DNA from: Bdellovibrionota bacterium
Lineage (GTDB): Bacteria; Bdellovibrionota; UBA2428
Assembly (NCBI GenBank): GCA_041750195.1
Contig: JBGSZX010000031.1
Coordinates: forward strand, 148,669-212,668
Direction: 5' to 3'
DNA: 64,000 nucleotides
The notes beneath the pieces were generated by a model. It was not told the origin of the DNA, did not search any database, and was given only the letters and a program-made list of their open reading frames with translations. The position numbers and the translations under genes were made by a program. Each line of letters opens with the position of its first letter. Position 1 is the stretch's first letter. Shown here in pieces: positions 32,034 to 53,013 of the stretch.

Positions 32034-32054
32034 TAACAGAGATTGGTGATTGAT

Positions 32055-34821: not shown

Positions 34822-36216
34822 ATGGGCGTTGTGGCTATTTTAATTTCTTTGGCACTTCTAATGTATGGTGCCTATCGGGGCATAAGTGTTCTGATCTTGG
34901 CTCCCCTTTTGGCGGCCTTTGCTGTTTTATTGTCTGGCGATGTGCCTTGGATGGGAACCTACACTCAAATTTTTATGGCCGCTTTGGGAAAATTTGCGGT
35001 TAAATATTTCCCAATATTTTTGATGGGCTCCATTTTTGGCAAGCTCATGGAAGTCAGCGGTTTCGCAAGATCCATTTCGCAAGGTCTTTTAAAAATGTTT
35101 GGACATACAAAAGCAATCTTGTCGATTGTCTTGGCTTGTGGATTGCTGACCTATGGCGGAGTGTCTGCCTTCGTTGTGGTCTTTACAATTTACCCTTTGG
35201 CATCAGCCTTATTTTGGGAGCTTAAGATTCCTAAGAGATTGGTCCCGGGGACGATTGCTCTTGGAGCGTTTACTTTTTCGATGACGGCGTTGCCTGGAAG
35301 TTCTCAAATTCATAATTTAATTCCCATGACTTATTTTGGAACCACGGCCTTTGCAGCTCCTTTGCTTGGAAGCATCGCGGGGCTGGCGATGTTCGTCTTG
35401 GGTGGTTTTTGGCTTCAACGAAGAGCAAGGCAAGCAAGAGAGCTAGGAGAGGGCTACGGTTACGAAGACGAATTTTCAGGTGTTGAAGAAAGGAGCTCTC
35501 TGCCTTTTGTGTTGGCGGTGCTTCCAATAGTGTTAGTGATTTCGTCAAACTATTTGTTTTCGGAATATTTCATTCCAGGATGGCAAACCGATTATTTGTC
35601 GAGCGAAAAATTTGGGGCAGTTGGGTTGCCTAAAGTGCTAGGAATTTGGTCTATGTTATTGGCTTTGGTGATTGGTATTTCATCATTGCTGATTTACATG
35701 TTTGTAAATTCGGGCATGAGAAAGCGAATCGCTAGGACAGTAAACGAAGGCGCTATGGGATCATTGCTTCCGACCTTCAATACCGCCTCTGAAGTGGGTT
35801 ATGGTGCAACGATTGCGACGCTTGCAGGGTTTGCTCTTATTCGTGATGGAATATTTAGCGTGAGTCCAGGGAGTCCTTTATTGGCGGAAGTTCTGTCGAT
35901 CAACGTATTGGCGGGAATTACTGGTTCAGCCTCGGGGGGATTGAGTATCGCTCTCGAAGCTTTGGGAAAACAATTTATTACTTTAGGGCAAAGTGCAGGA
36001 ATTAGTAACGAGATCATGCACCGAGTGGCATCATTGTCCTCCGGTGGCTTGGATACTTTTCCGCACAATGGCGCTGTGATCACCTTGTTAACCGTTTGTG
36101 GCCTGTCTCATCGAGAATCGTACAAAGATATTGCAGTAGTTTCTTTGGTTGTTCCTTTGCTTGTAACTGTGACTTTAGTTGGTTTGGGATCGCTTTTGGG
36201 AGTGTTTGCTTCATGA
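34822..36216 (+). CDS. GntP-family (gluconate:H+ symporter-like) permease
   Basis: 464 aa, about 12-13 TM helices. N-terminus MGVVAILISLALLMYGAYRGISVLILAPLLAAF and overall spacing resemble GntP/CitM-type ion transporters. Confidence 0.5.
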   Translation: MGVVAILISLALLMYGAYRGISVLILAPLLAAFAVLLSGDVPWMGTYTQIFMAALGKFAVKYFPIFLMGSIFGKLMEVSGFARSISQGLLKMFGHTKAILSIVLACGLLTYGGVSAFVVVFTIYPLASALFWELKIPKRLVPGTIALGAFTFSMTALPGSSQIHNLIPMTYFGTTAFAAPLLGSIAGLAMFVLGGFWLQRRARQARELGEGYGYEDEFSGVEERSSLPFVLAVLPIVLVISSNYLFSEYFIPGWQTDYLSSEKFGAVGLPKVLGIWSMLLALVIGISSLLIYMFVNSGMRKRIARTVNEGAMGSLLPTFNTASEVGYGATIATLAGFALIRDGIFSVSPGSPLLAEVLSINVLAGITGSASGGLSIALEALGKQFITLGQSAGISNEIMHRVASLSSGGLDTFPHNGAVITLLTVCGLSHRESYKDIAVVSLVVPLLVTVTLVGLGSLLGVFAS

Positions 36217-38698: not shown

Positions 38699-40054
38699 TT
38701 AGACGTCAACATCACAGGATATAGCTGTACATCCGGGGGGCAGGTCGCCATTCGGATCATCAATCGGAGGAGTGTCGGTTCCTGGATCTACCACTACCGG
38801 CACAGTTATGACTTCAACAGGCGGTTCAACCGGCGGCTCGATGATAGTTTTAAGGCAGTAATCAATTACGATTTCTGACTTGGCCACTCCTGGATTTTCA
38901 ATTCTGACACTATTGCTAGCTAAATCAAAACTGTGATTGCCCAACTCTCCGTCCACAAAGGCTTGAATGCTATCTTCTAAGACAGGTGAGTTAGATAGTT
39001 GGAAAGAATCAAAAACTTGCATTTGCTTGGCAACTTTTTCGCCAAAACTACTGAGACCTGAAGAATAGTCTTCTTGCCAAATGTCGATGAGACCACCGTT
39101 GGTTTTTTCGACAATCTCTGCATAGCCATATCCAAATTCATCTTCATTAGTTGTCATGGGTCTTCTGGAGATTGAGCTTTTTCCAGTTTTTGAATTGATA
39201 TATTTTGATGAGACGGGCAAATAGGCTTTTGGATCTTTATCAGTGTGGATAATAGCTCCAATAGAGACCGGTTGATCACCTTTGAGTGATCGCAAATGTT
39301 GGATCATGAAATCTGTACTGAGGTATTGAGAAGCGCCAGACGAAGTTTGAATGGTGCAGTTTTCATTTTTTGCAATATCCTCTAAAGTCTTTCCTTTATA
39401 GGTATTGTAATCCTTAGCTGGAGTGATACCATCTGGATACTGCGCACAAATTTCGTTTTCATCTGAAACAAATATAATTGCTAGGCCTGCGTCGGCTCTG
39501 AACATTCCGGCTGCTTTGTTTTTGGCGAGTTGGTCCCCTGAACTGGCTTGATAGAGCGAGTAAAAGGCTGTTTCACCACCATCAGAGAAGTAATCACTTG
39601 GAGTTTTTGTAAGACGGCTTTTTAACCCATTTCGAATTGACTCTAGTGAATGGATCTCAGAATCATAGACTGCAGGCGCCGTTGGACTGTTAACATATAG
39701 TTTTCCAGACCAACTTGATCGATTACCGTGGCTAAGAACAACACCAAGCCTATAGTCAAAATCTTCCGGAAGTTTTTCTACAAAATTATCTATTCTATTT
39801 GCGATTTGAATGCGTTCGTTCTCTATTGAACCTGAAGTATCCACGACAAATAGAACATCTAATTTAGATGTTAACACTTGGTCGGGCTGAGTATAGTGTT
39901 CGCGGTAACACGAATCTGCAATTGTTTCGACTCCGTCACCTTGTTTGATCCCATCTATAACATCAATGTTTGTGGGTATTTCGCATCCCGAAAATAATGC
40001 TAACCCGGCACAGTAACTGAGTAGTTTGTAGTTTGATTTCTTGTTAATCGGCAT
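38699..40054 (-). CDS. von Willebrand factor type A (vWA) domain lipoprotein
   Basis: Lipobox (LALFSGC). vWA MIDAS motif DVLFVVDTSGSIENER. A C-terminal Pro-rich repeat PPVEPPVEV. Confidence 0.7.
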   Translation of the reverse strand: MPINKKSNYKLLSYCAGLALFSGCEIPTNIDVIDGIKQGDGVETIADSCYREHYTQPDQVLTSKLDVLFVVDTSGSIENERIQIANRIDNFVEKLPEDFDYRLGVVLSHGNRSSWSGKLYVNSPTAPAVYDSEIHSLESIRNGLKSRLTKTPSDYFSDGGETAFYSLYQASSGDQLAKNKAAGMFRADAGLAIIFVSDENEICAQYPDGITPAKDYNTYKGKTLEDIAKNENCTIQTSSGASQYLSTDFMIQHLRSLKGDQPVSIGAIIHTDKDPKAYLPVSSKYINSKTGKSSISRRPMTTNEDEFGYGYAEIVEKTNGGLIDIWQEDYSSGLSSFGEKVAKQMQVFDSFQLSNSPVLEDSIQAFVDGELGNHSFDLASNSVRIENPGVAKSEIVIDYCLKTIIEPPVEPPVEVITVPVVVDPGTDTPPIDDPNGDLPPGCTAISCDVDV

Positions 40055-41677: not shown

Positions 41678-42157
41678 TTAACTTGGCTTAATAACAGAAG
41701 GAAGTGTTTTTATTTCGTTTCGAAAAAGAACATCAATTCTATTATCGCGTCGTTTTTGAACAACGCCTTTGCCAAAAACGTGATGAGTGAGCACTTCGCC
41801 TTCGTCGAAATATTTTTTTGGATCAAAATCTTTTACAACTTTGTCTCCCCAGTGTTTGACTCCATCAAACCAACTTTGCTCGAGTGTCGCAGAAGTTTTG
41901 ATGATTTGTGTCGAACTAGGTTTTCGACGGGTGACAGTTCGCTTTTTAGCGTCAGGTTTAGCTGTTTTTTCTTTTTTGTATTTATGAATAGTTTTAGAAA
42001 CTTTGCACTCAACTCGATCGACATAGCCGTCCTTGTCATGGTTGACCACAACATGCCAGGTGAAGGCTTTTTCTTTTGTGCTGTAACACCAAATATCTTG
42101 GGCTACAGGAGTGCGGTCAACATCAGAGTGGCTAGAGGAGTTTTTTTCACCGGTCAT
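41678..42157 (-). CDS. hypothetical protein with DUF3553-like C-terminal module
   Basis: C-terminus GEVLTHHVFGKGVVQKRRDNRIDVLFRNEIKTL resembles the HxxFGxGxV…V.F motif seen at UvrD/PcrA C-termini and in stand-alone DUF3553 proteins. Lys-rich middle. Confidence 0.35.
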   Translation of the reverse strand: MTGEKNSSSHSDVDRTPVAQDIWCYSTKEKAFTWHVVVNHDKDGYVDRVECKVSKTIHKYKKEKTAKPDAKKRTVTRRKPSSTQIIKTSATLEQSWFDGVKHWGDKVVKDFDPKKYFDEGEVLTHHVFGKGVVQKRRDNRIDVLFRNEIKTLPSVIKPS

Positions 42158-42161
42158 CGTT

Positions 42162-42695
42162 CTAGTAGTCTACTCGATCTTCCTTAAGTTTCCACAACTC
42201 AAAAACTTCGGTGTGGCCTTGCGTGACAACATGGAAGGTCGGAATTGACCTTTTTTCGATGGGCAAGGCGATTTCTTGGTAAATAAAGTCATCGTCAAAA
42301 CCCGCTAGCGCGGCATCTCTACGGGAGGCGGCAAAATAGAGGGCTTTGGGGCGTGCCCAGTAGATGGCGCCTAGGCACATGGGGCAGGGTTCACAGCTCG
42401 AAAAAATTTCGCAATCGTCTAATTGAAAGGTGGACAGTTTTTGACAGGCGTCACGAATGGCTTGAACCTCGGCATGTGCCGTGGGATCGTTGCGCGAGGT
42501 GACCGAATTAAAGCCGCTACCGACGATGGCGTCATTTTGTACAACAATGGCGCCAAAGGGGCCGCCTTGGCCATCTTGCATATGTTTTTTTGCAAGCTCT
42601 ACGGTCGCTTTTAAATATTTCTGGATTCTAGCCTCTGAATTCGACATCAAAGTATTGTGGCACAAATCGGGGAAGGCGGCAAAGCTAGGTCGCAA
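42162..42695 (-). CDS. CMP/dCMP-type zinc deaminase (TadA/GuaD-like nucleoside/nucleotide deaminase)
   Basis: HAEVQAIRDA and CEPCPMCLGAIYWAR motifs. Confidence 0.8.
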   Translation of the reverse strand: MRPSFAAFPDLCHNTLMSNSEARIQKYLKATVELAKKHMQDGQGGPFGAIVVQNDAIVGSGFNSVTSRNDPTAHAEVQAIRDACQKLSTFQLDDCEIFSSCEPCPMCLGAIYWARPKALYFAASRRDAALAGFDDDFIYQEIALPIEKRSIPTFHVVTQGHTEVFELWKLKEDRVDY

Positions 42696-43715
42696 TCATT
42701 TATGAGGGTTTGTGAGTCTCTCTAAGCTCTCATTTAAGGCTTGGATTTCTTCACGCCACCACTCCGGGCTCCCAAAATGGGGAAACAATTTAGGAAATGA
42801 GGGGTCGTCCCAGCGTCTGGCAATCCACGCATTATAATGAAGCATTCGTAGGGCTCTTAAGGCTTCAATGCTGTGAAGGGTTTCCTTTTCGAACGGATAG
42901 ATACTTTCGTAGGCCTCTAAAAATATTTCGCGCTGGCGCTCATCTTGAGCATCTCTTCCTCTTAATATCATCCATAAGTCTTGGACGGGGGGGCCGGTGA
43001 TGCAGTCGTCGAAATCGGTGAAGAAGGGACCTTGTTCATTCCATAGAACATTGCCGCAATGGCAATCTCCGTGGATGCTTATGTGTTTGAGGTTTGCAAT
43101 GGTGGCGCCGAGAAGCTCGGCAGATTCGTCTACCAATTGCAAATATCTTTCGGCCATCGGATTGTTGGCTAGGGGACTTTTGTCAAGAAAGTCGACGGAA
43201 TCCCAAAGCCAATTATCTACTGTAAAGGTTTTTCTAAATTTAAATTTTGTTTGAGAACCCACTATGTGAAGCCTTGCCAAATAGCGACCAAGAATTGTTA
43301 ACTCTTCGTTTTGTAGCTCATCCTTAAGGCGACCTCTAACTTTGGGAAAAATACAAAAATATATGTCTTCTGTGGTTTTTGAAATTTTTGAACAGGAAGT
43401 GTTGCCGCCCGGAAGATCAATAGCCTTTACGATAGGAACTTCGTAGTCATAGAGAGCAGTTAAAAAATTATGTTCTTCCTCTAGCTGTTCCAGGCTCCAA
43501 CGGCCTGGCCTATAAAATTTTGCAACATATTCTTCCCCATTTTCGAGGTCGAAGGACAAAACGCGATTTTCAATACTATTGAGAGCCATTAACCTGCCAG
43601 TGCAGCGGCGATTATCACCAGCGCTAACGCCAAGCGCAGCCTCAAGGCTGTTGAGGATATGGCTGTGATCTAGGGAATAGAAAGATTCTTTTAGGTTGCT
43701 CAACTCCCCTCGCAT
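42696..43715 (-). CDS. protein kinase-like (aminoglycoside phosphotransferase/RdoA-SrkA-type) fold protein
   Basis: Catalytic-loop-like IHGDCHCGNVLW and DFDD motifs. 339 aa, similar to YihE/RdoA-type stress kinases. Confidence 0.5.
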   Translation of the reverse strand: MRGELSNLKESFYSLDHSHILNSLEAALGVSAGDNRRCTGRLMALNSIENRVLSFDLENGEEYVAKFYRPGRWSLEQLEEEHNFLTALYDYEVPIVKAIDLPGGNTSCSKISKTTEDIYFCIFPKVRGRLKDELQNEELTILGRYLARLHIVGSQTKFKFRKTFTVDNWLWDSVDFLDKSPLANNPMAERYLQLVDESAELLGATIANLKHISIHGDCHCGNVLWNEQGPFFTDFDDCITGPPVQDLWMILRGRDAQDERQREIFLEAYESIYPFEKETLHSIEALRALRMLHYNAWIARRWDDPSFPKLFPHFGSPEWWREEIQALNESLERLTNPHK

Positions 43716-43864
43716 TCTAATCTACTTAGGGGCAGGAAGCACCGCGTGGAAGTCAAAATATAATGTTAATATATTAACATTATATCTTTTAAATGGCGAT
43801 ATTCCATGGCATGCTCATTTTTTGGCCTACTTTTAGGCTTTCGGTAATTAGGGAGATCCAACAA

Positions 43865-44488
43865 ATGAAAAATACAAAATTACTTGGACTGGGAATGCTT
43901 ATGCTTTTCGGGCTGGGCGTAGCTCAGGAAACTTTTGCAGCAAAAGCTCAGTTTAAAAAATATAATCTAGATGTCGCACATTCCGAGTTAGGATTTAAAG
44001 TTTCACATTTGGTAATTTCAAAAGTGCATGGAAGTTTCAAGAAATTCGAAGGGACATTCCAGGCTGATCCCGAGAAATTAGTCCTAAAAGATGTCAATGT
44101 TAACATAGATGTTGGCAGTATTGAGACCAACGAAAAGGACAGAGACGCGCACTTGGTTGGTCCTGATTTTTTTGATGCAAAAAAGTTTCCCAAAGCAGAA
44201 TTTAAAATTAAAGGACCCATCACCTTAAAACAAGGAAGCCCCATTGAAGCTAAGGGGACACTTAAAATAAAAGGGGTGAGCAAAAGCATTCCAGTAAATA
44301 TTACCTACAATGGATCTGCCGTGGACCCTTGGGGCAATAAAAAACATGGATTCGAAGTCACAGCCAGCGTGAATCGCAAAGAATTTGGAGTGAATTGGAA
44401 TAAAACTTTGGATCAAGGCGGTGTTATGGTCGGCGAAACTGTAGATATGTTAATTTCCGCGCAGGCTAGTCCTGACGCGGGCAAATAA
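43865..44488 (+). CDS. YceI-like periplasmic protein
   Basis: Signal peptide, then YNLDVAHSELGFKVSHLVISKVHGSFKKFEGTF...DVGSIETNEKDRDAHLVGPDFFDAKKFPKAEF, a pattern typical of the YceI polyisoprenoid-binding family. It ends 35 bp upstream of the precursor-peptide gene. Confidence 0.7.
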   Translation: MKNTKLLGLGMLMLFGLGVAQETFAAKAQFKKYNLDVAHSELGFKVSHLVISKVHGSFKKFEGTFQADPEKLVLKDVNVNIDVGSIETNEKDRDAHLVGPDFFDAKKFPKAEFKIKGPITLKQGSPIEAKGTLKIKGVSKSIPVNITYNGSAVDPWGNKKHGFEVTASVNRKEFGVNWNKTLDQGGVMVGETVDMLISAQASPDAGK

Positions 44489-44523
44489 GAAACAAGAAAG
44501 AAATAGGAGAAAAGGGCAAAAGT

Positions 44524-44841
44524 ATGAACAAAAATTTATTAACAGCAGCGGTTTTAGGTATTTCAATGGCGGCATGTGCTTCCGACGGAAAAGAAAAAAA
44601 TAACATGGCCGGTGGCGAAACAGCAACAGTTGAATGTCATGGCGTTACTTCTTGCAAAGGCACTGGCGACTGTGGTGGTGACGGGCACGCATGCGCTGGA
44701 AAAAATGCTTGCAAAGGGCATGGCTGGAAGAAAATGTCTGAGCATGATTGCACAGTTGCAAAAGAAGCAATGGCAGCTGCCGCAAAAGCAGCTGTTCCTG
44801 CAAAAAAAGCAGCGGTCAAAGCTAAAAAGGCAGTTAAATAA
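44524..44841 (+). CDS. Cys-rich Sec-signal precursor peptide, DUF2282/bufferin (BUF_6Cys)-like, with Lys/Ala-rich C-terminal tail
   Basis: MNKNLLTAAVLGISMAACA signal. Core ECHGVTSCKGTGDCGGDGHACAGKNACKGHGWKKMSEHDC has six Cys, an internally duplicated C-x-G-x-x-x-C-K/G-G unit and a conserved Trp. Tail AMAAAAKAAVPAKKAAVKAKKAVK. It sits immediately upstream of DUF692 and DUF2063 genes. Confidence 0.6.
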   Translation: MNKNLLTAAVLGISMAACASDGKEKNNMAGGETATVECHGVTSCKGTGDCGGDGHACAGKNACKGHGWKKMSEHDCTVAKEAMAAAAKAAVPAKKAAVKAKKAVK

Positions 44842-44849
44842 TAACTTAA

Positions 44850-45734
44850 ATGAGCACTCGTTCGAATTTTTATGGGGGGGTCGGTTTGCGACCTTCCCAT
44901 TATCAAGAATTTTTAAACCAGGCATCTAAGCCTTCCCTGAAATGGCTCGAAGTCATTTCGGAAAATTACTTTAGAACTCAAGGGCGTCCGATCAAGGTCT
45001 TGGAAAAATTAAGAGAGAATTATGAAGTTTCCTGTCATGGAGTATCTCTTTCAATTGCGTCTCCGGAAAAAATTGACCCTAGTTATGCTAAGGATATGAA
45101 AGAATTTTACAAACGCGTTGAGCCTTTTGTCGTGTCTGATCATATGTGCTGGACTGGATTTTCGGCACATAATGTTCACGATTTACTCCCATTCCCTTAT
45201 ACTCAGGAAAATCTAAAAAACGTTGTCGAAAAAATACAGTGGTATCAGGAATTTTTGGGCCGAGAATTGGCATTCGAAAATTTATCAGCTTACGTTCAGT
45301 TCCGTGAAAGCGATTTTACGGAAGAAGAGTTTTTTCAAGAAATTTTAAAACGCAGTGGAGCTAAAATGCTTCTTGATGTGAATAATATCTACGTGAATTC
45401 ACAAAATTTTGACTTTGATCCTCTTTTATATTTACAAAAAATTTCATTAGAAAACGTGGTTCAAATTCACTTGGCCGGTTATTCGGATATGGGAAATTTT
45501 TTGTTTGATACACATTCCAGGGCAGTGCAGCCAGGAGTGTGGGAGCTTTTTAAGAAGTTTGCAGCTCAGAAAAGTTTAAATTGCCCGGTGATGATTGAGT
45601 GGGATGACGACATTCCTAAGTTAAGCGTGGTCGTCGATGAATTGCATAAAGCTCAGGAGATCTGGGAAGGTGCAAAACAAGGCCAGGGAAAACTAACTTT
45701 GGAGCAAAAAATAGGCGAGTCTATAGATGGCTAA
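44850..45734 (+). CDS. DUF692 / MNIO (multinuclear non-heme iron oxidase, MbnB/TglH/BufB-like)
   Basis: Full-length family match: GGVGLRPSHY, LKWLEVISENY, CHGVSLSIAS, VSDHMCW, HDLLPFPYTQENL, LAFENLSAY, MLLDVNNIYVNSQNFDFDP, IHLAGYS, FDTHSRAV, VMIEWDDDIP. Starts 9 bp after the precursor stop. Confidence 0.85.
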   Translation: MSTRSNFYGGVGLRPSHYQEFLNQASKPSLKWLEVISENYFRTQGRPIKVLEKLRENYEVSCHGVSLSIASPEKIDPSYAKDMKEFYKRVEPFVVSDHMCWTGFSAHNVHDLLPFPYTQENLKNVVEKIQWYQEFLGRELAFENLSAYVQFRESDFTEEEFFQEILKRSGAKMLLDVNNIYVNSQNFDFDPLLYLQKISLENVVQIHLAGYSDMGNFLFDTHSRAVQPGVWELFKKFAAQKSLNCPVMIEWDDDIPKLSVVVDELHKAQEIWEGAKQGQGKLTLEQKIGESIDG

Positions 45735-46497
45735 GGTTAATTTTTTTGAAGATTTTCATAAATCTATTTTTTCTGACTTGGTTTATTTTCGCTGCATTCC
45801 AGGAGGCCAGCTAAGCGAATCCCAAAGTTACGGCGTCTATAGGACAGGTTATTATGCCAGAGCGACAGAAGCTTTGGGGGAAATTTATGAAACGACCTGG
45901 CGCTACTTGGGGGACGAAGATTTTTTTGCTCTCGTGGAAAAATATGTAAAGGCAAACCCCTCAATGAGCCCAAATCTGGCTGAGTGGAATTACGCTTTTA
46001 TGGATTTTTCAAAAGATTTATTCCACGATGATGAATTGCTTTCAGATCTTTTAACAATCGATGAGACTTATCATAATAAATTTCATTCTAGTGGCGAATA
46101 TTTAAAGACAATTGTTGACCCTTTGGATGAGGCGATGGCGCCCTTGTTGGGCCTTGTTGTTTGCGATGGCCAAATCCTGAAAGTTTCTTACAAAGCATTG
46201 TCGGTCTGGTGTGAATTGTTTTCAAAAGATATTTCTAAATTTGATTTGGAGGAAAATTATTCTTCTTTGCTGTTATTTAGAGCCCCTTCTTCGAGCGATC
46301 CGCATACTATGAATTTTCAAAGTTTAACTCTTGGGTCTGAAAAATTGCTGCGGATGCAAAAACATTTTTTTGGAGATTGGCGAAAAGTTTTGGAGAACTG
46401 GGAAGCTGTCAATGACTTTGGGCCTGAGTTAAATGAAAATGATTTGAGTTCTGCCGTTTCAGAGCTTCTTAGAAAAAAAGTTTTTCAAATTTTATAA
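45727..46497 (+). CDS. DUF2063-family MNIO partner protein (TglI/BufC-like)
   Basis: N-terminal DUF2063 pattern YGVYRTGYYARATEALGEIYETTWRYLGDEDFFALVEKYVKANPSMSPNLAEWNYAFMDF. Overlaps the MNIO gene by 8 bp. 256 aa. Confidence 0.75.
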   Translation: MAKVNFFEDFHKSIFSDLVYFRCIPGGQLSESQSYGVYRTGYYARATEALGEIYETTWRYLGDEDFFALVEKYVKANPSMSPNLAEWNYAFMDFSKDLFHDDELLSDLLTIDETYHNKFHSSGEYLKTIVDPLDEAMAPLLGLVVCDGQILKVSYKALSVWCELFSKDISKFDLEENYSSLLLFRAPSSSDPHTMNFQSLTLGSEKLLRMQKHFFGDWRKVLENWEAVNDFGPELNENDLSSAVSELLRKKVFQIL

Positions 46498-46511
46498 CGG
46501 AGACTCTGATA

Positions 46512-46958
46512 ATGGCACATAAAATTTCTAAAGAGGTTTCACTTTTACTTGAGATGCCTCACGTGAAAAATTGGAGACTTCTCATGGGAGCGTTTGACCG
46601 TGTACGACGTGAAATCGAAATTGAGTTGAGCGCCAATGGGCTCAGTATTTCCCGTTTTCAAGTTTTGTTTCTACTATACACCGAAGACTTTATGGCTCCC
46701 GTGGAAATTGCAAAGAGAATGCTTGTCACGAGAGCAAACATCTCGACGTTTTTAAAGCGTATGAAGACTGATGGATTAATTATAGAATGCCCAAACTCAA
46801 AGTCCTCTAAACGACCCTGTTTTAGGCTGACTCAGCAAGGTATCAAGGATTTTGAAAGCGTCTTTCCAAAACATGTTGATGTTTTAAAGAAATTTGTGCC
46901 TGCGTTTTCTCAAAAAACCAATTTAGAATTACTTGCCATAGTTGAGCGCCACCGTTGA
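46512..46958 (+). CDS. MarR-family transcriptional regulator
   Basis: Winged-helix region LSISRFQVLFLLYTEDFMAPVEIAKRMLVTRANISTFLKRMKTDGLIIEC..KRPCFRLTQQG. It is the last gene of the same co-directional run. Confidence 0.55.
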   Translation: MAHKISKEVSLLLEMPHVKNWRLLMGAFDRVRREIEIELSANGLSISRFQVLFLLYTEDFMAPVEIAKRMLVTRANISTFLKRMKTDGLIIECPNSKSSKRPCFRLTQQGIKDFESVFPKHVDVLKKFVPAFSQKTNLELLAIVERHR

Positions 46959-48152
46959 GTGAAATGACATTCCTTCAATAAAACAATCTTCGTCAACGTC
47001 AAATCGAGGGTCGTGGCACATATGGCAAATGCCTTTTTCGTCATTCCAGATTCCCAAAAACCCAAAACAAGCAGGAATTTTTTGGGAGTAGTAACCGAAA
47101 TCTTCACCTCCCATAGTGGGTGATGCGGGCATAATAATTTTATCTTTTTCAAAAATATCTTGAGCGGCCCTATAGGCAACCTCTAGAGCTTTTTGGTGAT
47201 TGAAGGTGACAGGATAGCCTTCAAGATATTCTATTTCGGCATTGGCCCCCATGGCCTCACAAGTTTTTTGTACTAATTCTTCGAAACGCCTGCGTAAAAG
47301 CTTTTGGACCTTTGGGTTGAAGCTTCTTATGGTTCCATGAAGAAATGCTTTTTCTGGGATCACATTATGAGTGCTTCCAGCATGAAATTCAGTAATGGAA
47401 AGAACGGCTTGATCGTTGGGATTTACATTTCGAGAGACAATGCTCTGAAGGTGGTTGACAATTTGCGCTCCAATAAGAATGGGGTCAACACAGAGATGGG
47501 GTTCGGCAGCATGACCGCCTTTCCCAGTTATAAATATTTTAAATTCATCCGGTTGCGCCATGGCGGGTCCATCGCAAAGCCCAAAAGTTTTGCTTTTAAG
47601 ATCGGGCCACACGTGCAGACCAAAAATCATGTCTACATTTTCCAGGACACCATCTGCGATCATTCCTGGAGCACCTCCTGGAAGATTTTCTTCGTTTGGT
47701 TGAAAGATAAATCTTACGTTGCAACGCAAGTGATCTCTGAGATCACTAAGAATCTTGGCTCCACCAATGAGCATAGCGGTATGGGCGTCGTGACCACACA
47801 TATGGGCGGCACCGGGAACCGTAGATTTGTATTCACAGCTGCCTTCTTCTTGCATGGGGAGGGCATCCATATCGGCACGCAGTGCTATTATGGGAAATTT
47901 AGGGTCAACAATCAAATCAGCAACGACACCGGTTTTTCCAACATGCTCTCTAACGGTGAGGCCTAATTTTCGACATTCATCGGCAGCAATTTTTGCCGTT
48001 CTTTGAACCTCAAATCCGATTTCCGGATTTTTGTGAATATCTCTGCGAATATCGATGATATTTTGGTGGTGAACCTTGGCTAATTCTAAAATTTTTTGCT
48101 TCAACTTAGACATCTTTTGTCTAAGTCTAGAGCTGCTTTGGGCGCTTTCCAA
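46929..48152 (-). CDS. M20D-family amidohydrolase (N-acyl-amino acid / hippurate hydrolase-like)
   Basis: HMCGHDAHTAMLIGGAKIL, the metal-binding Asp/Glu/His pattern and overall 400-aa M20D architecture. Confidence 0.8.
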   Translation of the reverse strand: MESAQSSSRLRQKMSKLKQKILELAKVHHQNIIDIRRDIHKNPEIGFEVQRTAKIAADECRKLGLTVREHVGKTGVVADLIVDPKFPIIALRADMDALPMQEEGSCEYKSTVPGAAHMCGHDAHTAMLIGGAKILSDLRDHLRCNVRFIFQPNEENLPGGAPGMIADGVLENVDMIFGLHVWPDLKSKTFGLCDGPAMAQPDEFKIFITGKGGHAAEPHLCVDPILIGAQIVNHLQSIVSRNVNPNDQAVLSITEFHAGSTHNVIPEKAFLHGTIRSFNPKVQKLLRRRFEELVQKTCEAMGANAEIEYLEGYPVTFNHQKALEVAYRAAQDIFEKDKIIMPASPTMGGEDFGYYSQKIPACFGFLGIWNDEKGICHMCHDPRFDVDEDCFIEGMSFHSTVALNYGK

Positions 48153-48219: not shown

Positions 48220-49167
48220 GTGCGTCATGTTTTCTTCTGTTTGCTTATGATTTTTCAGTTTGCACATTCGACGGAAGTTTATGCAAATGGTGCTGATATT
48301 CCTAAAGATCCCAAATTGCAGATTTTTGATGAGTCGAGCACGTCCGTTTCTATTCATGACTGTAAACTATTTGTACGTCATTTGAATTCGAACAAAAGCA
48401 CCAATGAAAATGCACCAAGAGTTATTGCAATCAATGGCGTCCCGGTGAGTTCATGGGTATATCGGGATTTTGCTATTCGAATAGCAAAAATGGGATGGTC
48501 CATCGATTTACTGGATTTGCCCGGCACAGGACATTCAACGCTAGAGGCTCCCACAAGATGGGGCAAGCAACGTGCTTGTATTGAACAATATTTGAAGGCC
48601 GTTCCTCAAAATTATATTTTAATTCTTCATGATATTTCGGGCCCGATAGTTTTACCGTTTATTGATGAGCTTCCTAAGCTAAGGGGCTTATTTGTTTTAA
48701 ATTCGGTGATCAAAACTTATGGCTTCAAGCCAATTGCCCCGATGAGTACACTTAGAAAACATTTTTTAGGAGATCTCACGATACTTTTTATGGGACGTGA
48801 AAAGTACAAAAATGAAATTAAAAAAATTGGATTAAAAAAAGATGTCGATGACTATTGGCTTGATCAAATACTGACCGACATGAGAGAAGGTGACTCCATA
48901 GGAAGGCTCACCACCATCATGCGAAGCTTCGATAGTTCCAAGTTGCTTGATTCAAAGATTGCCAAAAACATAGCGAGCTTTGAAGGGCCTAAATTTGCTG
49001 TTTGGGGACTGGCCGATCCATCTCTAGGAAATTTATCTTATTATGCAAAAGGGGTTTTTGGTGAAACTAACTATCTAGAAATTCCGGATGCCAAGCATTT
49101 CTTTATGATGGATTTTTCGAGCGAATTGGCAAAAATCTTTGACCAAGTTTTTACAAAATTGAAGTGA
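48220..49167 (+). CDS. alpha/beta-hydrolase fold protein, secreted
   Basis: Signal peptide. ~300 aa with lipase/haloalkane-dehalogenase-like alpha/beta arrangement (…LHDISGP…, C-terminal DAKHFF). Confidence 0.5.
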   Translation: MRHVFFCLLMIFQFAHSTEVYANGADIPKDPKLQIFDESSTSVSIHDCKLFVRHLNSNKSTNENAPRVIAINGVPVSSWVYRDFAIRIAKMGWSIDLLDLPGTGHSTLEAPTRWGKQRACIEQYLKAVPQNYILILHDISGPIVLPFIDELPKLRGLFVLNSVIKTYGFKPIAPMSTLRKHFLGDLTILFMGREKYKNEIKKIGLKKDVDDYWLDQILTDMREGDSIGRLTTIMRSFDSSKLLDSKIAKNIASFEGPKFAVWGLADPSLGNLSYYAKGVFGETNYLEIPDAKHFFMMDFSSELAKIFDQVFTKLK

Positions 49168-49346
49168 GTTGTGATTTTTGAGCGAATCGATTGGAAGGCA
49201 GCCTAAGTTTTCATTGCGCGAGAATGCCAAGATTGCCGCGGCTCTTGTTAAAGCCGTGAATCCCTCTTAATTAACAACATGCTACGCCAAAATTAATCGT
49301 TTCTTAACAAGTGTGGCTAGGACATTTGGGTATACTTGGTAAGCGC

Positions 49347-50672
49347 ATGAAAAGCTTCTTATCTTTGCTATGTTTTTGGCTAGTATGCGCAAGCTTTATC
49401 GGCGCAAGTTATGTGGCACATGCTGCGCCCGAAACTGGGAAATTTTATAATGTTGTCACCAAACTTTCGGGGGCTGTTCCGGCAGATTCGCTGACAACTG
49501 TGAAAGTGAATCTACTTCCAGGTGATCAGCTTAAGTTTGTTGGGTATGGGCCCACCTGGGGTAGTAATAAAACTTTAAAGGTTGAGGTTATTTCTGGGCA
49601 GGGTAGGGGAAATTTGTACTATATTTCTGGGGCGGCGGCCGTCAATGGAACGCTTGTGGCGGCAAAAGCATTGGATAGTAATTTTTCGGGCGCAGCAGCC
49701 GGAGCTCCCTCACAAAATTCTGCTCATAGTACGGACTCAAACGCTAATACTTCCAATAATAGCTCGGCCGTTAACTCCTCCGCAAAACCACAAGGAATCA
49801 CGGCTGCTAAAAATGGTGAGTTGATGAAAACTAGGTCGTACAAAGACGCACAGATGAAATTTTTTGATTTGCAATACAGGTTTAAGAGGGCAATGGCGGC
49901 TAAGGGGCTAATCATTCCTCTAAAAGATGCTACCCCAGGTCTAAGGGAAGCTGTCTTTGAAGTTATGAACAAGTTTAATCCACAGGAACAGGCGATGTTA
50001 GCAATGGTCGGAACCAGTTGGGCCGAAAGTCGCGAATCCTCTGGAAACAGGAGAGATTCGCATGACCCAATTGATAAAGCCAATAAAATATTTACCATGC
50101 ATATGCTGAAGATGAGGAGTGAAGATACTAAGAAAAAATATCTTATCGCTAAATCATATAGAGACAAGGGGACAGCGCTCGGCGTTGTTGGAGCTGTAGC
50201 GCCGGAGGGTGCATTTTCATCCTGGAATTCTGGCTCATTAAATTTTAAGAATATGGTGAATGCTCTTGGGGGATCTGTTCAGGCGGGGTCTAGGGTGTCT
50301 CTTCAGGCGACTGTGAATGCCTATCATGACTATTCAAATTTGGACGTGCAATTGAACGGGTTTTCTGGCCCGCAGGGTGAGCCGGCCCACCATATGATGA
50401 ACCGGACAGAGATTAGAAATCCGGCAGGGACAGTTTCCTGGTCGATCGAGCATGTTATGGGAAAGACATACAAACCAAAGGAACTTGAGCAAGCGATTGA
50501 TGTTGGTGTAAGAGTAAAGGGCTTTTCGATTTCTGTGAGAGATAAAAATGCTAAACTTATAAAAGTTTCGTCGCGAGATATTGATCATTGGCCCGTCTAT
50601 ATGGCATACCAAAAGGCAGGCACGAATATGGCGAATTGGAAAAAACTTAAGCAAGGGCAGGGGCGCTGGTAG
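49347..50672 (+). CDS. hypothetical secreted protein
   Basis: Signal peptide from ATG 49347 (MKSFLSLLCFWLVCASFIGASYVAHA). An Asn/Ser/Ala-rich linker then a globular C-terminal domain. No family recognised. Confidence 0.4.
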   Translation: MKSFLSLLCFWLVCASFIGASYVAHAAPETGKFYNVVTKLSGAVPADSLTTVKVNLLPGDQLKFVGYGPTWGSNKTLKVEVISGQGRGNLYYISGAAAVNGTLVAAKALDSNFSGAAAGAPSQNSAHSTDSNANTSNNSSAVNSSAKPQGITAAKNGELMKTRSYKDAQMKFFDLQYRFKRAMAAKGLIIPLKDATPGLREAVFEVMNKFNPQEQAMLAMVGTSWAESRESSGNRRDSHDPIDKANKIFTMHMLKMRSEDTKKKYLIAKSYRDKGTALGVVGAVAPEGAFSSWNSGSLNFKNMVNALGGSVQAGSRVSLQATVNAYHDYSNLDVQLNGFSGPQGEPAHHMMNRTEIRNPAGTVSWSIEHVMGKTYKPKELEQAIDVGVRVKGFSISVRDKNAKLIKVSSRDIDHWPVYMAYQKAGTNMANWKKLKQGQGRW

Positions 50673-51354: not shown

Positions 51355-53013
51355 ATGAGGAATGGTTCTCAGATCTCGAGATATGGAATTGTAGCTTGTT
51401 TTTTGTTTGTGGCCTTAATGATTCTTAATGCGGGCAACAATTCCCAAGTTAAAATTAATACAAATTCTTTGCCACCAATACTTACAGTGCGTGAGCCGGC
51501 GAGCGCTAACGGTCCTTCGTGCGCTGAAGATGCAAAAACAATAGTTGGCTTAAATGATAGAAACGGTGAGTTTGAGGCAAGCTTGAGACGACTCAAGGGT
51601 AGTTTAGAAAATAGCCGACTGCCCGCTGATGTAAAAAGGGCAATTTACAATGAATTTGAAACACCTCAAAGATCGACTGTTTTTGATATCTCGATTTTGG
51701 GTGATAATGGAAAAGAATTGCGCTTTCACGCTTTTAGAATATTGCACAACAACAAGCGAGGACCCGGAAAGGGGGGAATTCGCTTTGGGCCAGACGCCGA
51801 TCTTTCTGAAGTGAGCGCTCTTTCAATGGGCATGACCTTTAAAGCACCTTTGACAAATCTTCCTCTTGGCGGGGCCAAAGGCGGCGTCCAAATGAATCCC
51901 AAAGTTTTAAGCAATCAAGAAAAAGCAAAAGTTGCCAGAGCATATTTTGGCTACTTAAGCGAGCGAGGACTTGTGGGACCCAAAATTGATGTTCCAGCAC
52001 CAGACATGAATACAAATCCTCAAATAATGGAACTCATGCTTGATGAGCATTTAAGAATACAATTTCAAAAAGGATATTTTAGAGATCCCGAATTGAACGC
52101 AGCATTTGCAAAGACTGCAAATAACGGAAAAGAAAAAGATCCCGAGGCGACAAAATTTGTAGATGCCTATATCGATTGGGCTGAGCGAAGTCATAATATT
52201 GCGGAGCAGTTAGGCACTATCACTGGTAAGGCGGTCGGGCGTGGCGGGTCTAGGGGAAGAACTGAGGCAACAGGGCTTGGTGTCTATTACGTTGCCAGAG
52301 AATACGTTAAAGTAAAATTTGGAAAATCTTCTGCGATTCATCCTATGCGCGGACTTTCAGTTGCCATGCAGGGATTTGGAAATGTTGGCTCCCATGCTGC
52401 AATGTTTTTCAACGAAACAGGCGGGGCTAGCGTTGTGAGGCTTGTGGACTTTGTGGGGGGAGACAAGGCGCCATTTGCTGTCTTTGATGCTGTGGACGCT
52501 AAGTTAGGATTGCCGATCCAAGATATGTTTAGATTTTATCAAAAAAATAAAACCTTAGATGGCTTTAGTCACTTCAATGTAAGCGTTAAAAAAACGTCTG
52601 AGGCCGATGCATTAAATTCTTTTCTAAGTGCCGACGTCGATATGCTGGTACCTGCCGCACTTGGTAATCAGATAAGAAAAGAAAATCAATACCTCGTAAA
52701 AGCAAAGGCGATCATTGAAGCCGCAAACAATCCTACGTCTCCAGAAGCGGAGTCTGCTTTAATTGAGCGCAACATTGATGTGGTCCCTGACATTCTTGCG
52801 AATGCTGGTGGCGTTACTGTGAGCTATTTTGAAATGCTCCAAAACGCAACTTTGGCCCCAAACGAATATTGGAGCGTTGATAAGGTCTTCAGCGAGTTAG
52901 ATGAGCGCATGACAAAAGCTTTTAACGATGTTGCCTATAGAAAATTAGGCAACCCATCACTTACCTGGAGAAATGCGGCTCAAGTGGTTAGTCTAGAAAA
53001 ACTAGCTGAATAG
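51355..53013 (+). CDS. Glu/Leu/Phe/Val-family amino-acid dehydrogenase (glutamate dehydrogenase-like) with N-terminal hydrophobic extension
   Basis: Catalytic Lys box KAPLTNLPLGGAKGGV, NAD(P)-binding region GFGNVGSHAA and C-terminal DVVPDILANAGGVTVSYFE. About 60 extra N-terminal residues include a TM-like helix (YGIVACFLFVALMILNAG). A GTG at 51487 would be an alternative start past that helix. Confidence 0.8.
   Translation: MRNGSQISRYGIVACFLFVALMILNAGNNSQVKINTNSLPPILTVREPASANGPSCAEDAKTIVGLNDRNGEFEASLRRLKGSLENSRLPADVKRAIYNEFETPQRSTVFDISILGDNGKELRFHAFRILHNNKRGPGKGGIRFGPDADLSEVSALSMGMTFKAPLTNLPLGGAKGGVQMNPKVLSNQEKAKVARAYFGYLSERGLVGPKIDVPAPDMNTNPQIMELMLDEHLRIQFQKGYFRDPELNAAFAKTANNGKEKDPEATKFVDAYIDWAERSHNIAEQLGTITGKAVGRGGSRGRTEATGLGVYYVAREYVKVKFGKSSAIHPMRGLSVAMQGFGNVGSHAAMFFNETGGASVVRLVDFVGGDKAPFAVFDAVDAKLGLPIQDMFRFYQKNKTLDGFSHFNVSVKKTSEADALNSFLSADVDMLVPAALGNQIRKENQYLVKAKAIIEAANNPTSPEAESALIERNIDVVPDILANAGGVTVSYFEMLQNATLAPNEYWSVDKVFSELDERMTKAFNDVAYRKLGNPSLTWRNAAQVVSLEKLAE

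What the first reader, a model, noticed from the sequence alone, without database searches (positions are those of the whole stretch)
44524..44841. Precursor peptide has a duplicated CxGxxxCKG unit and a histone-H1-like Lys/Ala tail
Seen in sequence. The mature region reads ECHGVTSCKGTGDCGG-DGHACAGKNACKGHGW…HDC. Two related C…C-K/G-G units suggest an internal duplication that gives six Cys. A C-terminal AMAAAAKAAVPAKKAAVKAKKAVK tail follows; such KA-rich tails are typical of polyanion-binding (DNA/LPS/alginate, AlgP-like) proteins. Studied bufferin precursors end shortly after the Cys core. A cationic tail could anchor the modified peptide to the outer membrane or LPS, or to prey-cell surfaces if the host is predatory. 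This is inference. Three shadow ORFs overlap this stretch in other frames because of the repetitive GCN/AAR coding.
Basis: partly seen in the sequence, partly recalled or inferred. Interest (0 to 1): 0.6.

Follow-up and report, generated by a model that had tools for sequence, protein, structure and literature searches.

The report
Bufferin precursor with lysine-alanine tail
This small gene encodes the precursor of a known kind of copper-chelating modified peptide (a Buf2 "bufferin"); it is probably lipid-anchored and has an unusually long, positively charged helical tail, which makes it a slightly unusual member of a described family, not something new.

Summary
It is a Buf2 (BUF_6/12Cys) bufferin precursor. 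It matches NCBIfam BufA2 at E 8e-16 (58 bits, 2 below the cut-off). All six family Cys are in register. It sits in a tight yceI-bufA2-bufB(MNIO)-bufC(DUF2063)-marR operon.

The "duplicated" C-x-G-x-N-x-C-K-G-x-G unit is genuine, but it is the signature of the whole family, not a feature of this locus.

The SMAAC end of the signal peptide fits lipoprotein patterns. So do 27% of the nearest relatives, and the literature already predicts lipoprotein signals for about 16% of Buf2.

The tail (29 residues after Cys VI; 13 Ala, 8 Lys, net +7) is in frame, coding-like, and ends 8 nt before bufB. AlphaFold predicts one helix, and the Lys residues lie on one face. Among 159 relatives the median tail is 13 residues and net +2. 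This tail is the most K/A-rich and ties for the highest charge. However, 8% have tails of 25 residues or more, and basic C-terminal ends recur across the family.

No relative closer than about 57% identity exists, so conservation of this exact tail cannot be tested. Its function is inferred only. A histone-H1/AlgP-type DNA-binding role is unlikely for an exported peptide.

The parts
43793..44488 (+). yceI-like gene, first gene of the same-strand cluster. The true start is probably the internal Met that begins MKNTKLLGLG..., which gives a signal peptide.
   Evidence: Pfam YceI PF04264, E 1.9e-43. A YceI gene sits directly upstream of the Buf2 precursor in 4 of 22 related loci as well: L007, L012, L015, L017.
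44524..44841 (+). bufA2: Buf2 (BUF_6/12Cys) bufferin precursor, 105 aa.
   Evidence: ORF listed. NCBIfam NF050166 BufA2, E 8e-16, 58 bits (cut-off 60), residues 7-80. 743 relatives at E<=1e-3 in the exhaustive search.
44524..44577 (+). Signal peptide MNKNLLTAAVLGISMAA plus Cys18: a probable lipobox (S-M-A-A-C). The alternative is a signal peptidase I site A-C-A|S after Ala19.
   Evidence: Fits the PROSITE PS51257-type pattern, as do 47 of 173 relatives. P0109 has LLASC|ASDG, and P0032 and P0034 have LGAC|AS. The literature predicts lipoprotein signals for about 16% of Buf2.
44635..44751 (+). Six-Cys core, Cys38 to Cys76 (Cys I-VI).
   Evidence: C38, C44, C50, C57 and C63 are invariant and C76 is conserved in alignment A1. 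Coordinates checked by translation.
44635..44667 (+). Motif unit 1, CHGVTSCKGTG (Cys I and Cys II).
44692..44724 (+). Motif unit 2, CAGKNACKGHG (Cys IV and Cys V).
44752..44838 (+). C-terminal tail TVAKEAMAAAAKAAVPAKKAAVKAKKAVK: 29 aa, net +7. The last 14 aa, PAKKAAVKAKKAVK (44797..44838), hold 6 of the 8 Lys.
   Evidence: Composition. Predicted helix 73-104 at pLDDT 79-87. Helical hydrophobic moment 0.369 against 0.167 +/- 0.085 for shuffles. Codon log-likelihood +0.495 bits/codon in frame +1.
44839..44844 (+). Double in-frame stop TAA TAA, 5 nt before the bufB ATG.
44850..45734 (+). bufB: MNIO-family bufferin maturase.
   Evidence: NCBIfam NF050167 MNIO_BufB, 320.7 bits (cut-off 310). Pfam PF05114, E 3.1e-95.
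45727..46497 (+). bufC: DUF2063 partner protein. It overlaps bufB by 8 nt.
   Evidence: Pfam PF09836, 53.8 bits (cut-off 27.2). Coordinates.
46512..46958 (+). MarR-family regulator, last gene of the cluster, 14 nt after bufC.
   Evidence: Pfam MarR_2 and MarR, E about 1e-7. Not conserved in the related loci.

Best explanation
The ORF is the precursor gene (bufA2) of a Buf2-type bufferin. Bufferins are ribosomal peptides that are modified and exported to the periplasm, where they chelate excess copper.

By analogy with the studied Caulobacter system, the adjacent MNIO enzyme BufB and its DUF2063 partner BufC would oxidise the four central cysteines (Cys44, 50, 57, 63) to 5-thiooxazoles in the cytoplasm. 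The outer pair (Cys38 and Cys76) would form a disulfide after Sec export. The twice-repeated C-x-G-x-N-x-C-K-G-x-G motif is the family's substrate and metal-site signature.

Here the signal peptide most likely ends in a lipobox. The mature product would then be an approximately 88-residue lipoprotein starting at acylated Cys18.

The K/A-rich tail lengthens the short C-terminal helix that the family already has. The result is an approximately 30-residue helix with a lysine face and a strongly basic end, and it raises the calculated pI from about 7 to about 9.

My best guess for the tail's role is inference only. It may hold the chelator against anionic envelope surfaces (phospholipid head groups or peptidoglycan), it may shield the C-terminus from proteolysis, or both. 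It does not take part in copper binding.

The confidence given (0.75) is for the identity of the gene and operon. The lipoprotein reading alone I put at about 0.6, and the proposed role of the tail at about 0.3.
For: Shown here:
- BufA2 HMM match at E 8e-16 over residues 7-80.
- Six Cys in register with 23 homologues, then with 150 more.
- BufB above its equivalog cut-off and a DUF2063 partner immediately downstream, with gaps of 8 and -8 nt.
- No terminator-like site between the genes.
- Lipobox pattern fit, with 47 of 173 relatives carrying a Cys at the same place.
- Tail in frame with coding-like codon use. No DNA tandem repeat, so it is not a recent slippage product.
- AlphaFold helix 73-104.
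- Tail hydrophobic moment reached by 1.7% of shuffles; the Lys residues fall within a 160-degree arc.
- pI 9.0 with the tail and 7.0 without residues 81-105.
- In relatives with tails of 15 aa or more, basic residues concentrate in the last six positions: 0.32 against 0.20, reached by 0 of 5000 shuffles. Also, 57% of relatives have K or R in the last three residues.

From the literature:
- Buf2 chemistry, Sec export and the copper-protection phenotype (PMC11626156).
- About 16% of Buf2 have predicted lipoprotein signals (PMC12452194).
- Lipidation has been shown experimentally for another MNIO RiPP family and predicted for bufferins (PMC13056109).
Against: - The BufA2 score is 2 bits under NCBI's curated cut-off.
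- Position -3 of the lipobox is Met, which is non-canonical. An A-x-A signal peptidase I site (A17-C18-A19|S20) overlaps it, so a soluble periplasmic product is a real alternative.
- Only this sequence carries this tail. No relative above about 57% precursor identity or 52% BufB identity was found in any collection, so there is no evidence of purifying selection on the tail.
- The AlphaFold helix rests on a single sequence in that part of the alignment, and the Cys core is modelled at only pLDDT 55-63.
- The non-Lys face is Ala, which is too weakly hydrophobic for strong membrane insertion.
- No copper-related gene lies nearby.
- Nothing here tests modification, export, lipidation or binding.
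Confidence: 0.75

Rival explanations
1. The tail has no specific function. It is a low-complexity C-terminal extension that drifts freely in length and composition, in a part of the protein that is under little constraint.
For: Tail length after Cys VI ranges from under 10 to 46 residues among relatives, with very different compositions (AP-rich, KE-rich, KA-rich, Met/His-containing). This exact tail is found in one sequence only.
Against: There is no DNA-level repeat, and synonymous codons vary (GCA/GCT/GCC/GCG, AAA/AAG). The Lys residues are phased on one helical face more than in 98% of shuffles. Long tails across the family share a basic end that shuffling does not reproduce.
Confidence: 0.3
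2. The product is a soluble periplasmic peptide cleaved by signal peptidase I after Ala19 (A-C-A|S), not a lipoprotein. The tail is then the only element that could keep it at a surface.
For: An A-x-A motif overlaps the putative lipobox, and position -3 of the lipobox is Met, not Leu/Val/Ile. The studied Caulobacter bufferins are cleaved by signal peptidase I (PMC11626156). 73% of relatives have no lipobox.
Against: The sequence satisfies the PS51257-type lipoprotein pattern. Close contexts (LLASC|ASDG, LGAC|AS, ILMAAC|E, GAAC|AS) recur in relatives, and a Cys at that spot would have no other reason to be conserved. No dedicated predictor could be run.
Confidence: 0.35
3. The basic end mainly protects the exposed Ala-rich C-terminal helix from periplasmic tail-specific protease, which prefers small apolar C-terminal residues. 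More generally, it stabilises or solubilises the small protein. This rests on my own knowledge of Prc/Tsp specificity.
For: 24% of relatives end in Lys, against 12% overall Lys content, and 57% have K or R in the last three residues. Acidic residues are depleted in the last six positions of long tails: 0.04 against 0.19.
Against: One or two terminal charges would be enough for this. It does not explain eight Lys phased on one helical face, nor the extra 15 residues.
Confidence: 0.15
4. The tail acts during biosynthesis as a follower-type recognition element for BufB/BufC (the RRE-like domain), not in the periplasm.
For: In Buf1 the signal peptide is dispensable for modification, so recognition lies at least partly in the core peptide (PMC11626156).
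Against: Most family members are modified without any such tail. Tails are not conserved even among loci whose BufB proteins are about 50% identical.
Confidence: 0.08
5. The tail is a histone-H1/AlgP-like polyanion (DNA or alginate) binding module.
For: Compositional resemblance only: AKKA and KAAV repeats, net +7.
Against: There is no match to any H1-, Hc1- or AlgP-type family in Pfam or NCBIfam at E<=1. The protein has an N-terminal export signal aligned with those of its relatives, so it does not meet DNA. Low-complexity similarity is not homology.
Confidence: 0.03
6. The tail is not translated: the real ORF ends earlier, or there is a frameshift or sequencing error.
For: Alternative frames are open across the region. 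A 25-codon open stretch alone is not improbable in this composition.
Against: There is no in-frame stop before 44839. First codon positions are purine in 28 of 29 codons, with a strict G/A-C/A-N periodicity. Codon log-likelihood is +0.495 bits/codon in frame +1 against -0.42 and -0.89 in the other + frames. A double stop lies just before the bufB start. Relatives P0043, P0059 and P0102 align into the first half of the tail (C..EILKAAAEKGM).
Confidence: 0.02

Closest known systems
Buf2 / BUF_6/12Cys bufferins (BufA2 of Caulobacter vibrioides, CCNA_03001; NCBIfam NF050166)
   Same: N-terminal Sec-type signal. Six Cys in the same register, with the C-x-G-x-N-x-C-K-G motif twice. Precursor, then MNIO BufB, then DUF2063 BufC gene order, with no DoxX gene. 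A predicted two-strand sheet plus C-terminal helix.
   Different: 29 residues follow Cys VI, against 11 in Caulobacter and a median of 13 in 159 relatives. Highest K+A fraction (0.72) and joint highest net charge (+7) in that set. Thr replaces the 98%-conserved Asn in unit 1. Probable lipobox. The operon also holds yceI and marR. The HMM score is 2 bits under the curated cut-off.
Predicted lipoprotein-type bufferins and experimentally lipidated MNIO RiPPs (DybA / chryseobasin-like; PMC13056109)
   Same: An MNIO-modified precursor whose signal peptide ends in a lipobox Cys, implying Lgt/LspA processing after cytoplasmic modification.
   Different: Lipidation is only predicted here. The lipobox is non-canonical (Met at -3). 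None of the other 46 lipobox-bearing relatives whose tails could be scored has a tail of 25 residues or more.
Buf1 / DUF2282 bufferins (PF10048)
   Same: Same maturase and partner types, the same kind of exported Cys-containing small protein, and the first motif C-[HY]-G-[VI] is shared. Several close homologues of this protein carry a precomputed PF10048 label.
   Different: This protein gives no PF10048 match at E<=1. It has six, not four, conserved Cys, and there is no DoxX, sigma or anti-sigma gene.
Braun lipoprotein Lpp (a resemblance recalled from my own knowledge; a lead, not a test)
   Same: A small protein with an N-terminal lipid anchor, an Ala-rich helical C-terminal part, and a C-terminal Lys.
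   Different: No sequence relation. There is a Cys-rich metal-binding domain in between. There is no evidence of coiled-coil trimerisation or of peptidoglycan cross-linking.

Membership tests
Buf2 / BufA2 bufferin precursors (NF050166; BUF_6/12Cys) | Match to the family HMM at or above the curated score | tested here: inconclusive
   58.0 bits, E 8e-16, profile positions 7-75 of 79. The curated equivalog cut-off is 60. The match is highly significant but 2 bits short.
Buf2 / BufA2 bufferin precursors (NF050166; BUF_6/12Cys) | Six conserved Cys in the family register | tested here: met
   C38, C44, C50, C57 and C63 are invariant and C76 aligned in A1. The motif logos from 121 relatives agree.
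Buf2 / BufA2 bufferin precursors (NF050166; BUF_6/12Cys) | N-terminal Sec-type signal peptide | tested here: met
   Basic n-region (K3) and a 13-residue hydrophobic stretch, aligned with the signal peptides of all relatives. This is a pattern-based test only; no dedicated predictor was available.
Buf2 / BufA2 bufferin precursors (NF050166; BUF_6/12Cys) | Adjacent MNIO maturase of the BufB type and a DUF2063 partner | tested here: met
   NF050167, 320.7 bits, above the 310 cut-off. PF09836, 53.8 bits, above the 27.2 cut-off. The gaps are 8 and -8 nt.
Buf2 / BufA2 bufferin precursors (NF050166; BUF_6/12Cys) | Central Cys converted to 5-thiooxazoles; copper binding | not testable with these tools
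   Needs mass spectrometry, NMR or UV spectroscopy and metal-binding assays. Known only for the Caulobacter homologue.
Buf1 / DUF2282 (PF10048) | Match to PF10048 | tested here: not met
   No PF10048 hit at E<=1 for this protein.
Bacterial lipoproteins (signal peptidase II substrates) | Lipobox ending in Cys at position 15-35, after an uncharged h-region, with K or R in the n-region | tested here: met
   AAVLGI-SM-A-A-C18 fits the PS51257-type pattern. 47 of 173 relatives also fit, and 11 of those are canonical. Position -3 is Met, which is non-canonical.
Bacterial lipoproteins (signal peptidase II substrates) | Actual diacylglyceryl modification and LspA cleavage | not testable with these tools
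   Needs labelling, globomycin treatment or mass spectrometry.
Histone-H1 / Hc1 / AlgP-like K/A-rich polyanion-binding proteins | Sequence-family match and a cytoplasmic location with access to DNA | tested here: not met
   No such family at E<=1 in Pfam or NCBIfam. The only Pfam line is DUF2486 at E 0.3, below its cut-off. The protein carries an export signal.
Lpp-type peptidoglycan-linked lipoproteins | C-terminal Lys cross-linked to peptidoglycan; trimeric coiled coil | not tested
   Only the superficial features (lipobox, helical Ala-rich C-terminal part, terminal Lys) can be read from the sequence.

The most novel reading that the evidence does not exclude
The peptide is a two-point-anchored envelope copper buffer. 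It would be lipid-anchored at Cys18. A lysine-faced C-terminal helix would either bind, or be cross-linked through its terminal Lys to, anionic envelope polymers (peptidoglycan or phospholipid), in the manner of Lpp. Alternatively, the helix would act as a membrane-active cationic segment that carries chelated copper to another cell's surface. More broadly, the basic C-terminal end that recurs in long-tailed Buf2 peptides would be a functional targeting module that the bufferin literature has not described.
Probability: 0.08. Interest if true: 0.55.

Novelty: new member of a known kind. Interest (0 to 1): 0.25.

Why it matters
Bufferins are a recently described and very large class of periplasmic copper-chelating peptides. 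Where they sit in the envelope is not known, and neither is what the variable regions outside the Cys core do.

This locus offers a natural extreme case: a probable lipid anchor combined with the most cationic tail seen among about 160 relatives. It could be used to test whether C-terminal tails position or stabilise these chelators.

The family-wide enrichment of basic residues at the very C-terminus, and the recurrent yceI gene upstream, are small observations that I did not find discussed in the bufferin papers I searched. As it stands, though, the finding is an ordinary member of a known family with an unusual appendage.

Tried and rejected
- Exact look-ups.
- Scans with BufB. Genome and metagenome scans gave 11 loci each, none above 52% identity. 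A close-range test of tail conservation or dN/dS was therefore impossible.
- Taxonomy. The nearest BufB loci come from Bdellovibrionales and "Myxococcales" MAGs, Leptospira and Elusimicrobiota. That is too scattered to call the host predatory.
- Tandem Repeats Finder found no DNA repeat in the tail.
- Promoter and terminator scans were no better than shuffles.
- Rfam found nothing in 42500..47500.
- PDB sequence searches with the precursor and with BufC found nothing.
- I did not run a fold search on the AlphaFold model, because the Cys core is modelled at only pLDDT 55-63.
- I considered and rejected three readings: a local, recent internal duplication (the motif pair is family-wide); kinship with DNA-binding H1/AlgP proteins; and an untranslated tail.
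- The bufferin papers I searched do not discuss C-terminal tails or the internal motif repeat.

Full report
**1. The observation**

The ORF 44524..44841 (+) exists, is 105 codons long, and translates exactly as quoted. It starts 35 nt after the stop of a YceI-family gene, behind a purine-rich stretch (AGGAG...AAGGG). It ends with two in-frame TAA codons 5 nt before the ATG of the next gene.

The two units CHGVTSCKGTG (44635..44667) and CAGKNACKGHG (44692..44724) are present. So is the tail TVAKEAMAAAAKAAVPAKKAAVKAKKAVK (44752..44838; 13 Ala, 8 Lys, 4 Val, net +7).

Four ORFs of at least 40 aa overlap the tail in other frames. The three longest match no Pfam family.

**2. What it is**

NCBIfam places residues 7-80 in the BufA2 family, "periplasmic bufferin-type metallophore". 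The match is E 8e-16 at 58 bits, against a curated cut-off of 60.

The neighbouring genes fit the same system:
- 44850..45734 is a BufB-type MNIO maturase: NF050167 at 320.7 bits (cut-off 310), and PF05114 at E 3e-95.
- 45727..46497 is its DUF2063 partner.
- A MarR-family regulator follows at 46512..46958.
- A YceI protein precedes the precursor at 43793..44488.

All five genes are on the + strand, with gaps of 35, 8, -8 and 14 nt. No terminator-like site lies between them. No Rfam element is present.

The surrounding genes are housekeeping: DapF, deaminases, an M20 peptidase, MnmA, CoaBC and GDH. None is copper-related.

According to PMC11626156, Caulobacter BufA2 has a Sec signal peptide and a 61-residue core with six Cys. 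Cys I and Cys VI stay unmodified and probably form a disulfide. Cys II-V each lose 4 Da, which is the conversion to 5-thiooxazole. The peptide protects against copper stress. That mechanism is transferred here by homology; it is not shown here.

**3. The "duplicated unit"**

A word-indexed search of 5.8 billion protein clusters gave 23 homologues. An exhaustive HMMER search of 1.84 billion representatives gave 743 at E<=1e-3.

In the alignment, C38, G40, C44, G46, C50, C57, G59 and C63 are invariant. N42, K45, G48, N61, K64, G65 and G67 are nearly so.

Logos from 121 relatives show the same C-x-G-x-N-x-C-K-G-x-G pattern in both halves. In-register similarity of the non-fixed columns is reached by only 0.8% of column permutations.

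The repeat is therefore real, but it is the family signature. It says nothing specific about this locus. The only local peculiarity is Thr in place of the 98%-conserved Asn in unit 1.

The two units are also not functionally symmetric in the studied homologue. The first Cys of unit 1 is a disulfide partner, whereas the first Cys of unit 2 is modified.

Domain-level duplication (the 12-Cys proteins) is already described (PMC12452194). Such proteins appear among the hits as entries of 160-215 aa with two matched stretches.

**4. The signal peptide**

MNKNLLTAAVLGISMAAC18 fits the PROSITE-type lipoprotein pattern. So do 47 of the 173 nearest relatives (27%), and 11 of those have the canonical [LVI][ASTVI][GAS]C. 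Several have very similar contexts, for example LLASC|ASDG and LGAC|AS.

Lipobox-bearing precursors also sit next to BufB relatives in Leptospira, an Elusimicrobiota MAG and several metagenome contigs.

The literature already predicts lipoprotein signals for about 16% of Buf2. It also reports experimental lipidation of another MNIO RiPP family.

An overlapping A-C-A|S signal peptidase I site and the Met at position -3 keep the soluble alternative alive. I put the lipoprotein reading at roughly 0.6.

**5. The tail: is it translated?**

The evidence says yes, as far as sequence can show:
- There is no in-frame stop before 44839.
- First codon positions are purine in 28 of 29 codons, while third positions vary among synonymous codons.
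- Tandem Repeats Finder sees no DNA repeat.
- Against long ORFs of the same window, the tail scores +0.495 bits per codon in frame +1. The other + frames score -0.42 and -0.89, and bufB itself scores +0.20.
- Relatives P0043, P0059 and P0102 have a similar helix-like C..EILKAAAEKGM segment after Cys VI, which aligns with the first half of the tail.

**6. The tail: how unusual is it?**

In 159 relatives whose core could be delimited, the tail after Cys VI has a median of 13 residues (IQR 10-16.5) and a median net charge of +2. 108 are net positive and 23 net negative.

This tail (29 residues, net +7, K+A fraction 0.72) has the highest K+A fraction and ties for the highest charge.

It is not unique in kind, however. 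13 tails of the 159, this one included (8%), have 25 residues or more. These are rich in A, P, K and E, and almost all end in a basic patch (...PAKKK...PAKK...APKKG...STKK). A Bdellovibrionales MAG locus (L003) has a 33-residue Lys-rich tail.

In tails of 15 residues or more (n = 50), K/R frequency is 0.32 in the last six positions against 0.20 in the middle. No shuffle out of 5000 reaches that. One caveat is that the sequences are related, although each represents a separate 50%-identity cluster.

24% of relatives end in Lys, against a 12% overall Lys content.

This is the only scored relative that combines a lipobox with a long tail. No other K/A-rich stretch occurs anywhere in the 64-kb window in any frame.

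**7. Structure**

AlphaFold2, with the 24-sequence alignment, gives strands 35-39 and 68-72 and one helix 73-104. pLDDT is 79-87 in the helix but only 55-63 in the Cys core.

This agrees with the published description of a two-stranded sheet plus a short helix carrying the disulfide. The tail prolongs that helix. Pro92 may kink it.

As a helix the tail is amphipathic. Its hydrophobic moment is 0.369 against 0.167 +/- 0.085 for shuffles, and 1.7% of shuffles reach it. All eight Lys fall within a 160-degree arc.

The tail shifts the calculated pI of the mature peptide from 7.0 to 9.0.

**8. Mechanism**

- Shown: family identity, operon structure, motif conservation, a coding-like tail, and the relative extremeness of the tail.
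- Inferred from the studied homologue: thiooxazole formation on Cys44, 50, 57 and 63, the Cys38-Cys76 disulfide, Sec export and copper chelation.
- Inferred from patterns: lipidation at Cys18.
- Speculative: the role of the tail.

I favour an electrostatic association with anionic envelope components, possibly combined with protection of the C-terminus. Neutral drift remains a serious rival at about 0.3.

A DNA- or alginate-binding H1/AlgP-type role is disfavoured. The protein is exported, and no such family is matched.

The "predatory host" idea cannot be assessed. The organism has no close relative in any collection searched.

**9. Comparison, novelty and verdict**

This is a new member of the Buf2 bufferin family, with an unusually long cationic helical tail and a probable lipobox.

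Both the family and the lipoprotein subclass are published. In the bufferin papers I searched I found no discussion of C-terminal tails or of the within-domain motif repeat. These are modest additions.

Interest is low to moderate (0.25).

Noticed in passing
window 43793..44488; L007 2966..3601; L012 1649..2191; L015 1548..2060; L017 1468..2100: A YceI-family gene lies directly upstream of the Buf2 precursor here and in 4 of 22 related loci from other lineages (36-42% identity, E 1e-35 to 1e-43). In each case it ends a few tens of nt before the precursor start. It may be a recurrent accessory gene of this Buf2 sub-clade. The published BGC survey required intergenic gaps of 10 bp or less and would have missed it.
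   Followed up: partly
relatives P0035, P0049, P0054, P0064; L003 3567..3932; L006 3681..3995: Several Buf2 tails carry Met/His clusters (GMMH, MHMKM, LKMDM) just before a basic end. These resemble Met-rich Cu(I) motifs. The window's own tail has only one Met and no His.
   Followed up: no
159-173 Buf2 relatives (P0001-P0174): There is a family-wide bias towards a basic C-terminus. 57% have K or R in the last three residues and 24% end in Lys. In tails of 15 aa or more, basic residues concentrate in the last six positions (0 of 5000 shuffles reach the observed value).
   Followed up: partly
window 46512..46958 (+) and 46929..48152 (-): A MarR-family regulator with two Cys (…IIECPNSKSSKRPCF…) closes the bufferin operon. 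It is not conserved in the related loci. Its 3' end overlaps the 3' end of a convergent M20 peptidase gene by about 30 nt. It could be the local, possibly redox- or copper-sensing, regulator.
   Followed up: no
window 38699..40054 (-): A 451-aa ORF with a lipoprotein-like N-terminus (…LALFSGC), a DxSGS motif reminiscent of a von Willebrand A metal site, and a C-terminal PPVEPPVE/Pro-rich region. It has no Pfam match at E<=1e-5.
   Followed up: no
window 18085..20547 (-), 32043..33794 (+), 34822..36216 (+), 49311..50672 (+), 48220..49167 (+), 41678..42157 (-): Several long ORFs (159-820 aa) have no Pfam family at E<=1e-5. Even the glutamate dehydrogenase has no relative above 62% identity. The genome seems to belong to a poorly sampled lineage (GC 42.5%).
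   Followed up: no
window 51355..53013 (+): The glutamate dehydrogenase is 552 aa, about 100-130 residues longer at the N-terminus than most of its 400-440-aa homologues. Only six relatives share the long form.
   Followed up: no
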